NCBI RefSeq assembly: GCF_003334355.1
Contig: NZ_QOWP01000008.1
Source of the DNA: Escherichia coli
Lineage (GTDB): Bacteria > Pseudomonadota > Gammaproteobacteria > Enterobacterales > Enterobacteriaceae
Direction: 5' to 3' (one strand)
Length of the DNA: 64,000 bases
This document shows, piece by piece, positions 62,241 through 62,377 of this stretch (position 1 is its first letter; the number at the start of each line of letters is the position of its first letter). The position numbers and the translations under genes were made by a program. Under the pieces are notes generated by a model. That model had not been told where the DNA came from and made no database searches. It saw only the letters and a list, made by a program, of their open reading frames with translations.

Positions 62241-62377
62241 TGCATCTCACCTTTTCACTTCATATCCGGCAAAACTAAGAAATTTTCCAGGTTTTTCCTG
62301 GACGCTATCTCAGGCCTGATTTGCTGCTGATTTTTACAATGCATGCCTCACGCAGGTATTCATTTCAGGAGTAACCC

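What the first reader, a model, noticed from the sequence alone, without database searches (positions are those of the whole stretch)
62241..62377. Palindrome ccaggtttttcctgg in the uhpT promoter region
A 15-bp inverted repeat (about 62288-62302) sits roughly 75-90 bp upstream of the uhpT start. This is the region where the response regulator UhpA would be expected to act, making it a candidate activator site.
Basis: inference. Interest (0 to 1): 0.15.

Follow-up and report, generated by a model that had tools for sequence, protein, structure and literature searches.

The report
Known UhpA-binding region of uhpT promoter
The small palindrome is real, but it is a by-product of two neighbouring docking sites for the activator UhpA in the long-studied E. 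coli uhpT (sugar-phosphate transporter) promoter, so it is ordinary and already known.

Summary
The window ends in the E. coli uhpABCT locus. It extends to TCCAGG-N5-CCTGGA (62286-62302), 77-91 bp upstream of the uhpT ATG.

As a bare 5-N5-5 inverted repeat it is unremarkable: 94 in the window against about 63 in shuffles. Its value comes from its position.

I anchored numbering on the conserved CRP site (centre 62243.5, published as -103) and the TACAAT -10 box, giving +1 at 62347. The palindrome then spans -60 to -46. That lies inside a block (-76 to -32) conserved across 80 uhpT promoters. From my memory of the Kadner-lab papers, which I could not re-read, this block matches the UhpA strong (-80/-50) and weak (-50/-32) footprints.

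The palindrome itself is probably not the recognition unit:
- Perfect complementarity occurs in only 10 of 80 species; 50 have CCCGG/CCTGG.
- The better-supported dyads are centred at -64 (a perfect 25-bp palindrome in Aeromonas) and about -42.

Verdict: already known, low interest.

The parts
62287..62301 (.). It extends to TCCAGG-N5-CCTGGA at 62286-62302.
   Evidence: Exact match. Six-pair stem reported.
62275..62291 (.). Inferred strong (S) UhpA dyad CTAAGAA-ATT-TTCCAGG, centre 62283 (-64). Flanking AAAAC/GTTTT extend the symmetry to 62271-62295.
   Evidence: Imperfect palindrome I2 centred at 62282.5. Columns -76..-52 are highly conserved. Aeromonas L078 has a perfect 11-3-11 palindrome in the same register. 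It resembles the RcsAB box TaAGaa|tatTCctA (PMC3950696). '-64 element' is from my memory of Merkel et al. 1992.
62297..62314 (.). Inferred weak (W) UhpA dyad, CCTGGAC-GCT-ATCTCAG (centre -42) or CCTGGA-N6-CTCAGG (centre -41.5). It abuts the missing -35.
   Evidence: Columns -50..-32 are conserved at 1.3-2.0 bits except -44 and -40. The inner GGAT...ATCC symmetry is perfect in L071 and Brenneria L052. The register is inferred. The pattern match alone is at chance level.
62271..62315 (.). Phylogenetically conserved activator block, -76..-32.
   Evidence: Ungapped comparison of 80 uhpT promoters anchored on the -10 box. The block has 1.6-2.0 bits per column, against about 0.5 bits at -31..-22.
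62236..62251 (.). CRP/CAP site cGTGA-N6-TCACc, centre 62243.5 (-103.5). Its GTGA half-site contains the uhpC stop codon TGA (62238-62240).
   Evidence: 2 mismatches to TGTGA-N6-TCACA. GTGA and TCAC are conserved at about 1.8 bits. PMC5352689 places the CRP inverted repeat at -103.
62335..62340 (+). -10 hexamer TACAAT, preceded by an invariant T-tract at 62331-62334. There is no -35 hexamer.
   Evidence: Invariant in 80 of 80 sequences by construction of the anchor, and the flanking T-tract is 96-100% conserved. The sigma-70 scan found no complete promoter in 62100-62500, as expected for an activator-dependent promoter.
62347..62347 (+). Inferred uhpT transcription start (+1).
   Evidence: It follows from CRP centre = -103.5 and TACAAT = -12..-7. 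It was not measured here and could be off by 1-2 nt.
62378..63769 (+). uhpT coding sequence, the regulated gene. RBS AGGAG at 62367-62371.
   Evidence: ORF. NCBIfam UhpT equivalog, 832 bits. RefSeq annotation.
58819..59409 (+). uhpA, the NarL/FixJ-family response regulator that acts on this promoter. uhpB is at 59406-60911 and uhpC at 60918-62240.
   Evidence: NCBIfam UhpA, UhpB and UhpC models are all far above cut-off. The nearest solved structures are DesR, NarL, DevR, VraR and RcsB.

Best explanation
The palindrome is part of the already-characterised UhpA-binding region of the E. coli uhpT promoter. It is not an independent element.

With +1 at 62347 it covers -60..-46. The promoter carries four UhpA half-sites about one helical turn apart, of the form CYNRGA(W):
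- CTAAGAA (-72..-66)
- TTCCAGG (-62..-56)
- CCTGGAC (-50..-44)
- ATCTCAG (-40..-34)

These form two dyads. The high-affinity dyad is centred at -64 and the low-affinity dyad at about -42. The two inner half-sites are both good CCNGGA matches and point away from each other. Because CCNGG is almost self-complementary, they automatically read as TCCAGG-N5-CCTGGA.

Mechanism, from established work on this system and inference:
1. External glucose-6-phosphate is sensed by UhpC and UhpB, and UhpA is phosphorylated.
2. UhpA-P fills the -64 site.
3. At higher occupancy it fills the -42 site next to the absent -35.
4. From there it recruits RNA polymerase, helped by CRP-cAMP at -103.5.

What is shown here: gene identity, positions, conservation, and lack of conservation of the symmetry. 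What is inferred: the half-site register and the dimer arrangement. What is recalled and not re-read: the footprint limits.
For: Locus identity:
- 100% match to the E. coli uhpC-uhpT intergenic region in 5417 genomes.
- UhpA, UhpB, UhpC and UhpT models are far above cut-off.

Numbering:
- The CRP core at 62236-62251 and TACAAT at 62335-62340 give a self-consistent +1 at 62347.
- The conserved GTGA/TCAC columns then centre on -103.5, matching 'centred at -103' in PMC5352689.

Location of UhpA binding:
- Held reviews say UhpA binds two adjacent regions, strong upstream and weak downstream, below the CRP site.

Conservation across 80 species:
- A block at -76..-32 is conserved. Arm columns are 1.6-1.9 bits and the background is about 0.5 bits.
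- The central base of the left arm (-58, 0.99 bits) and the spacer positions -53..-51 (0.5-0.95 bits) are free to vary.

- CCCGG/CCTGG in 50 of 80, CCTGG/CCTGG in 8, and a perfect 6-5-6 in only 10 of 80.
- The close relatives Escherichia whittamii (L002) and Escherichia sp. E1V33 (L001) have CCTGG/CCTGG.

Support for the -64 and -42 dyads:
- Aeromonas has a perfect 25-bp palindrome centred exactly at -64.
- Several lineages have a perfect inner GGAT-N3-ATCC at -42.
- The S dyad resembles the box of the paralogue RcsB.

Other:
- No -35 hexamer is present.
- A Salmonella PuhpT fragment works as a UhpA-dependent G6P biosensor. The one Salmonella promoter I read, S. enterica subsp. arizonae L005, has the imperfect CCCGG/CCTGG pair.
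Against: - That is higher than for the -64 dyad (6.8/11) and the -42 dyad (3.8/6). I attribute this to the self-complementarity of CCNGG, but it means sequence alone cannot exclude a -53-centred binding unit.
- The half-site consensus CYNRGAW was derived from this promoter. Scanned over the window at up to 2 mismatches it is at chance level, 19 found against 19 expected. The W-site register therefore rests on position and conservation only.
- The exact footprint limits (-80/-50, -50/-32) and the '-64 element' come from my memory. The primary papers could not be opened.
- The transcription start is inferred, not measured.
Confidence: 0.78

Rival explanations
1. The palindrome itself, centred at -53, is a true UhpA dimer site. 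It would be either the main site or a third overlapping register between the -64 and -42 dyads. The four half-sites would then be read as monomer, dimer, monomer, or as a tetramer with its two-fold axis at -53.
For: - It is the most perfect inverted repeat in the E. coli intergenic region.
- Mean complementarity across 80 species is 4.9/6.
- In most genera it reads as a 7-3-7 repeat, TCCCGGT-TTC-ACCTGGA, with a single mismatch. This is the same geometry as the other two dyads.
- The whole 39-bp stretch 62275-62313 is a 71% palindrome about -53 (I1).
Against: - The central pair is non-complementary in 50 of 80 species and shows no covariation. G at -48 occurs only 4 times, always with the majority C at -58.
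- One clade (L064, L071, L072) has CTCGA/CCTGG, 2/5 complementary, while keeping the rest of the block.
- Its inner bases (GGT...ACC) differ from the GAA...TTC and GAC...GTC shared by the -64 and -42 dyads.
- By recollection, the published strong/weak footprint boundary falls at -50, inside the palindrome. The two arms would therefore fill at different UhpA concentrations.
Confidence: 0.12
2. The direct-repeat reading matters rather than the inverted one. On the minus strand the region reads GGAAA-AACCT-GGAAA, which resembles a CpxR box (GTAAA-N5-GTAAA). CpxR-P could then repress uhpT by competing with UhpA at the junction of the two UhpA sites.
For: - A 2-mismatch match at 62284-62298 on the minus strand.
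- A direct repeat of 9 nt with a 10-bp period.
- CpxAR is reported to control uhpT and fosfomycin resistance. Only the title of Kurabayashi et al. 2014 was seen, in the reference list of PMC5352689.
Against: - My own estimate is about 0.15 such matches by chance in this 178-bp region.
- The majority K-12 allele (TTTTG spacer) worsens the match to 3 mismatches.
- The T-run is not conserved outside Escherichia; spacers are mostly TTTCA or TTTCG.
- The paper that might show a CpxR footprint is not held.
Confidence: 0.04
3. The repeat acts as an RNA hairpin. It could be a terminator or stabiliser at the 3' end of the uhpABC transcript, or a minus-strand terminator.
For: - The terminator scan flagged a minus-strand stem-loop, TCCAGGAAAAACCTGGA followed by AAATTTCTTA.
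- The plus-strand RNA folds into the 6-bp hairpin in a 50-nt context, with an overall energy of -12 kcal/mol.
Against: - The fold is no better than shuffles: z = -1.0, and 32 of 200 shuffles fold at least as well.
- There is no U-tract after the stem on the plus strand.
- The scan's hit count matches its chance expectation, 1 found against 0.6.
- No minus-strand gene converges on the site.
- The middle stem pair is a C-T mismatch in 50 of 80 species, so there is no compensatory change.
- No Rfam family matches.
Confidence: 0.02
4. The palindrome is pure chance with no function at all. Neither arm would be a protein contact.
For: 5-N5-5 inverted repeats are abundant: 94 in the window, against about 63 expected.
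Against: Both arms, apart from their central base, are among the most conserved non-coding columns across 80 species, at 1.6-1.9 bits against a background of about 0.5 bits. They also lie in the region where UhpA is reported to bind.
Confidence: 0.03

Closest known systems
UhpA strong (S, -80/-50, '-64 element') and weak (W, -50/-32) binding regions of the E. coli uhpT promoter (Merkel et al. 1992; Dahl et al. 1997; Olekhnovich & Kadner 2002)
   Same: It is the same locus and the same DNA. The K-12 sequence differs from the window at only one base in the -85..-27 region. The palindrome lies inside these regions, and the conserved block found here (-76..-32) matches them.
   Different: Nothing differs biologically. 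The window carries a minority spacer allele, T instead of G at -51. It spans the S/W boundary. The coordinates of the published regions are from my memory, because the papers are not held.
RcsAB box TaAGaa|tatTCctA (RcsB, a NarL/FixJ-family paralogue of UhpA; PMC3950696)
   Same: The -64 dyad TAAGAA-ATT-TTCCAG has near-identical half-sites. In Aeromonas it is TAGGAA-AAA-TTCCTA. This supports reading CCAGG as part of a TTCC-type half-site that faces -64.
   Different: The spacing is one base pair longer, N3 rather than N2. The direct scan with the 14-bp RcsAB consensus gives 4 mismatches. The regulator and the signal are different.
NarL 7-2-7 heptamer pairs (TACYYMT-N2-AKRRGTA)
   Same: The protein family is the same, since NarL is among the best PDB matches to UhpA. 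The general logic is also the same: inverted half-sites bound by a dimer of C-terminal HTH domains, with several sites of different affinity in one promoter.
   Different: There is no sequence match to the NarL heptamer in the region, even at 4 mismatches. The half-site sequence and spacing differ.
Co-dependent promoters with a distal CRP site plus a regulon-specific activator
   Same: A CRP site sits at -103.5 upstream of a specific activator that occupies the -35-proximal region. PMC5352689 describes uhpT as this type.
   Different: This concerns the promoter as a whole. The palindrome is not the CRP site.

Membership tests
UhpA-binding region of the uhpT promoter | Lies directly upstream of uhpT in a uhpABCT locus that encodes the cognate regulator UhpA. 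| tested here: met
   RefSeq annotation of identical E. coli DNA. NCBIfam equivalogs for UhpA, UhpB, UhpC and UhpT.
UhpA-binding region of the uhpT promoter | Falls inside the DNA protected by UhpA in footprints, between the CRP site and the -10 box. | tested here: inconclusive
   The position was computed here as -60..-46. Held secondary sources give a CRP site at -103 with two adjacent UhpA regions downstream. The exact limits (-80/-50 and -50/-32) are from memory, because the primary papers are not held.
UhpA-binding region of the uhpT promoter | Conserved in orthologous uhpT promoters. | tested here: met
   In 80 species the arm columns are 92-99% conserved, apart from the central base (77% for the left arm, 88% for the right). 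They lie within a conserved block at -76..-32.
UhpA-binding region of the uhpT promoter | Substitution reduces UhpA binding or activation. | not testable with these tools
   This needs mutagenesis and binding assays, or the published block-substitution data of Olekhnovich & Kadner 2002, which is not held.
Self-contained dimer operator (the inverted repeat as the recognition unit) | The two arms are complementary. | tested here: met
   5/5 complementary, or 6/6 when extended, in the window and in K-12.
Self-contained dimer operator (the inverted repeat as the recognition unit) | The complementarity is maintained in evolution, by symmetric conservation or covariation. | tested here: not met
   It is perfect in 10 of 80 species. 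50 of 80 have a C/T mismatch at the centre, 8 of 80 are direct repeats (CCTGG/CCTGG), and one clade is 2/5 complementary. There is no covariation signal.
Self-contained dimer operator (the inverted repeat as the recognition unit) | The half-sites match the promoter's other half-sites in the same orientation relative to the dyad axis. | tested here: not met
   The inner bases are GGT...ACC at -53, against GAA...TTC at -64 and GAC...(A/G)TC at -42. This rests on an inferred consensus.
Intrinsic (Rho-independent) terminator | A G+C-rich stem-loop followed directly by a U-tract, at the end of a transcription unit. | tested here: not met
   No T-run follows the stem on the plus strand. There is one weak minus-strand hit, at the chance rate. 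Fold z = -1.0. No converging gene is present.
CRP/CAP site | TGTGA-N6-TCACA-like 16-bp core. | tested here: not met
   No match overlaps the palindrome at up to 3 mismatches. The CRP site is at 62236-62251.
Dcm methylation sites | The sequence CCWGG. | tested here: met
   Both arms are CCWGG. Whether they are methylated, or whether that matters, cannot be tested here. In most other genera the left arm is CCCGG, which is not a Dcm site.

The most novel reading that the evidence does not exclude
The -53-centred palindrome could be a functional symmetry axis in its own right. It could be the contact point of a UhpA dimer-of-dimers, or a third overlapping binding register that lets UhpA-P spread cooperatively from the strong site to the weak site. 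In Escherichia, where both arms are CCWGG, Dcm cytosine methylation of both arms might also tune UhpA occupancy. The near-perfect 39-bp pseudo-palindrome about -53 and the high cross-species complementarity of the arms do not exclude this.
Probability: 0.1. Interest if true: 0.3.

Novelty: already known. Interest (0 to 1): 0.08.

Why it matters
uhpT is the glucose-6-phosphate transporter and one of the two uptake routes for fosfomycin, so its promoter matters for fosfomycin susceptibility. PuhpT is also used as an intracellular G6P biosensor.

The UhpA-binding region of this promoter was dissected decades ago, so the finding adds no new biology. The cross-species view here gives modest refinements:
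- The conserved block is -76..-32.
- The ancestral dyad is centred at -64.

Tried and rejected
Primary literature:
- I tried to open the primary papers, and none is held. These were Olekhnovich & Kadner 2002 by DOI, PMC135017 and PubMed id; Chen & Kadner 2000, PMC94613; Merkel et al. 1995, PMC176797; Olekhnovich & Kadner 1999, PMC103689; Wright et al. 2000, PMC94772; Dahl et al. 1997 by DOI; and Kurabayashi et al. 2014, PMC3911262.
- A full-text search for the half-site consensus 'CCTGRR', which I half-remember, together with UhpA found nothing.
- Searches for secondary sources giving footprint coordinates returned only qualitative statements (passages).

Sequence tests:
- The derived 7-3-7 pattern CYNRGAA-N3-TTCYNRG gave 19 hits at up to 2 mismatches against 19 expected. 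It has no discriminating power beyond the perfect S-site match from which it was derived.
- The RNA-hairpin or terminator idea was rejected.
- FNR and NarL consensus scans found nothing on the palindrome. The only FNR-like 3-mismatch hits are the CRP site itself and 62259-62272.
- A PDB sequence search found no UhpA structure that could fix the half-site geometry. It returned only family relatives.

Full report
**What is there**

The last 5 kb of the window is the E. coli uhpABCT locus. The 401 bases around the finding are 100% identical to E. coli chromosomes, where they are annotated as the end of uhpC and the start of uhpT. The four ORFs score far above the curated cut-offs of the NCBIfam UhpA, UhpB, UhpC and UhpT models. 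uhpC ends at 62240 and uhpT starts at ATG 62378.

It is 77-91 bp upstream of the ATG. One more complementary pair on each side makes it TCCAGG-N5-CCTGGA, 62286-62302.

**Is it more than chance?**

Not as a bare inverted repeat.
- The window holds 94 perfect 5-N5-5 repeats and 29 perfect 6-N5-6 repeats, against shuffle means of 63 and 16.
- The specific CCWGG-N5-CCWGG form is unique in the window, but 15 of 100 shuffles also contain one.
- The same bases read equally well as a direct repeat with a 10-bp period, TTTTCCAGG/TTTTCCTGG. This is because CCNGG is self-complementary apart from its centre.

Any significance must therefore come from position and conservation.

**Promoter coordinates**

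- A CRP-type core cGTGA-N6-TCACc lies at 62236-62251, centre 62243.5.
- TACAAT lies at 62335-62340.
- No complete sigma-70 promoter is detected, as expected for a promoter without a -35 box.
- PMC5352689 states that CRP-cAMP binds an inverted repeat centred at -103, upstream of the UhpA site.
- Setting the CRP centre to -103.5 gives +1 = 62347, which places TACAAT at -12..-7. The two anchors agree.

The palindrome is then -60..-46, centred at -53.

**Published knowledge**

Held secondary sources say that UhpA binds two adjacent regions of the uhpT promoter. There is a strong upstream site and a weak downstream site, both below a single CRP site. Phosphorylation stimulates binding (PMC4790336; PMC5352689).

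From my own memory of the Kadner-laboratory papers (Merkel et al. 1992; Dahl et al. 1997; Olekhnovich & Kadner 2002):
- The strong region is -80 to -50 and contains an inverted-repeat '-64 element'.
- The weak region is -50 to -32.

I could not re-read these papers, because none is held. On those coordinates both arms of the palindrome are protected by UhpA, but by different regions: CCAGG by the strong one and CCTGG by the weak one.

**Comparative evidence**

I fetched 80 uhpT loci from different species: Escherichia, Salmonella, Citrobacter, Klebsiella, Enterobacter, Kluyvera, Buttiauxella, Pantoea, Dickeya, Brenneria, Rouxiella, Aeromonas and others. Anchored on the -10 box, 79 usable loci plus the window (80 sequences) align without gaps from -110 to -7.

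Per-column information shows the following:
- The CRP half-sites are conserved.
- A sharply bounded conserved block runs from -76 to -32, at 1.6-2.0 bits per column.
- A non-conserved gap lies at -31..-22, at about 0.5 bits.
- The extended -10 is conserved.

The block matches the remembered -80/-32 footprint closely. Inside it, the weakest columns are:
- -58, the central base of the left arm (0.99 bits);
- -53..-51, in the spacer (0.47-0.95 bits);
- -69, -66, -44 and -40.

Both arms are therefore under selection, but not for complementarity:

| Left arm / right arm | Species (of 80) |
|---|---|
| CCCGG / CCTGG | 50 |
| CCAGG / CCTGG (as in the window) | 8 |
| CCTGG / CCTGG (a direct repeat) | 8 |
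| CCCGG / CCGGG | 3 |
| CTCGA / CCTGG | 3 |
| other | 8 |

- The 6-5-6 palindrome is perfect in 10 of 80.
- There is no covariation of the central pair.
- Escherichia whittamii (L002) and Escherichia sp. E1V33 (L001) have the direct-repeat form CCTGG/CCTGG.
- A Salmonella PuhpT fragment is a working UhpA-dependent G6P biosensor. The Salmonella promoter I read, S. enterica subsp. arizonae L005, has the imperfect pair.

**What the symmetry really is**

The most divergent promoter, Aeromonas L078, has a perfect 25-bp palindrome, AGAACTAGGAA-AAA-TTCCTAGTTCT, at -76..-52, centred exactly on -64. The E. coli equivalent is AAAACTAAGAA-ATT-TTCCAGGTTTT, 8/11 complementary. This is the '-64 element'.

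Its half-sites (TAAGAA / TTCCAG; TAGGAA / TTCCTA in Aeromonas) closely resemble the box of the paralogue RcsB, TaAGaa|tatTCctA (PMC3950696), with one extra spacer base.

A second dyad with the same GA-N5-TC core lies 22 bp downstream: CCTGGAC-GCT-(A/G)TCTCAG, centred at -42. Its inner part is a perfect GGAT-N3-ATCC in L071 and in Brenneria. An alternative register, CCTGGA-N6-CTCAGG centred at -41.5, fits equally well.

The four half-sites fit CYNRGA(W): CTAAGAA, CCTGGAA (reverse complement of TTCCAGG), CCTGGAC and CTGAGAT (reverse complement of ATCTCAG). The two inner ones are both CCNGGA and face away from each other, which automatically yields TCCAGG-N5-CCTGGA.

This register is my inference. 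The pattern was derived from this promoter and has no statistical power elsewhere in the window.

**Mechanism**

The following combines established knowledge of the system with inference.
1. Glucose-6-phosphate outside the cell is sensed by UhpC and UhpB.
2. UhpA is phosphorylated, and UhpA-P occupies the -64 dyad.
3. At higher occupancy it fills the -42 dyad, which replaces the missing -35.
4. RNA polymerase is recruited, and CRP-cAMP at -103.5 adds to activation.

Its arm centres are 10 bp apart, so the inner protomers sit on one face of the helix.

**Rivals**

*A -53-centred UhpA dimer site.*
- For: mean arm complementarity is 4.9/6, higher than for the other dyads. The 39 bp at 62275-62313 are 71% palindromic about -53.
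- Against: the non-conserved central pair, the differing inner bases, and the remembered S/W boundary at -50.
- I give it about 0.12.

*An RNA hairpin or terminator.* Rejected, for these reasons:
- fold z = -1.0;
- no U-tract;
- a scan hit at the chance rate;
- no compensatory changes;
- no Rfam match.

*A CpxR-like direct repeat on the minus strand* (2 mismatches). This is weak. It is worse in the majority K-12 allele, and the relevant paper is not held.

*Pure chance without function.* Contradicted by the conservation.

**Population note**

- The window's spacer TTTTT is a minority allele. Only 64 of 5417 complete E. coli genomes are identical to the window over 62262-62320.
- 5115 of 5417 are identical to the K-12 form with TTTTG. 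The alignment with MG1655 shows the single difference at -51.
- Column -51 is the least conserved of the block, so the change is probably neutral.

**Verdict**

The element belongs to a promoter whose activator sites are already mapped, so it is already known and of low interest.

Noticed in passing
window 62296 (-51): The window carries T where K-12 and about 94% of complete E. coli genomes carry G (spacer TTTTT against TTTTG). Only 64 of 5417 genomes are identical to the window over the 59-nt query 62262-62320. This column is the least conserved of the UhpA block.
   Followed up: yes
window 62236-62251 and 62238-62240: The upstream half-site (GTGA) of the CRP site contains the uhpC stop codon TGA. 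The CRP operator of uhpT therefore overlaps the end of the uhpC coding sequence.
   Followed up: partly
window 62287-62291 and 62297-62301: Both arms are CCWGG, the Dcm methylation sequence, 10 bp apart inside the UhpA-binding region. In most other genera the left arm is CCCGG, which is not a Dcm site. No evidence on methylation or any effect was available.
   Followed up: no
L001, L002, L034, L035: between the -10 box and the uhpT ATG (about 125 nt before locus position 2501): Escherichia sp. E1V33, E. whittamii, Raoultella terrigena and Enterobacter sp. 10-1 carry an extra 65-78 nt in the uhpT 5' leader, giving a UTR of 96-109 nt instead of about 31-36. The ends (AAGTTGCAGGAA...CCTGAAGTATGAAGGG) remind me of a short ERIC/IRU repeat. 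That identification is from memory. No copy was found in the window.
   Followed up: partly
L006, L016, L029, L033, L042, L045, L048, L065, L069, L073 and others: -94..-73 of the uhpT promoter: Many non-Escherichia genera have a strong palindrome or hairpin between the CRP site and the UhpA block, TTTTGCCCC-GAGT-GGGGCAAAA. Predicted RNA energy reaches -17 kcal/mol. Some variants look compensated, such as ACGTC...GACGT in Kluyvera. It is absent from E. coli (0 kcal/mol). Its function is unknown, and it has no U-tract on either strand.
   Followed up: partly
window 62228-62245 and 62342-62353: An 11-12-nt inverted repeat, 83-91% complementary, links the uhpC end and CRP-site region (GCGTGAAGCGTGATGCAT) with the transcription-start region (CATGCCTCACGC), about 100 nt apart. 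It is probably chance.
   Followed up: no
window about 63500-63813: The 3' end of uhpT and its terminator correspond to the sRNA UhpU annotated in MG1655. The terminator hairpin is GCCCGGC...GCCGGGC at 63788-63806, followed by a T-run. PMC12704781 describes UhpU as having a FliA-dependent internal promoter. Rfam gave only sub-threshold matches to unrelated sRNA families there.
   Followed up: partly
window 62284-62298, minus strand: GGAAA-AACCT-GGAAA resembles the CpxR box GTAAA-N5-GTAAA with 2 mismatches, and overlaps the junction of the two UhpA sites. CpxAR is reported to affect uhpT, but the paper is not held. The match is weaker in the K-12 allele.
   Followed up: partly
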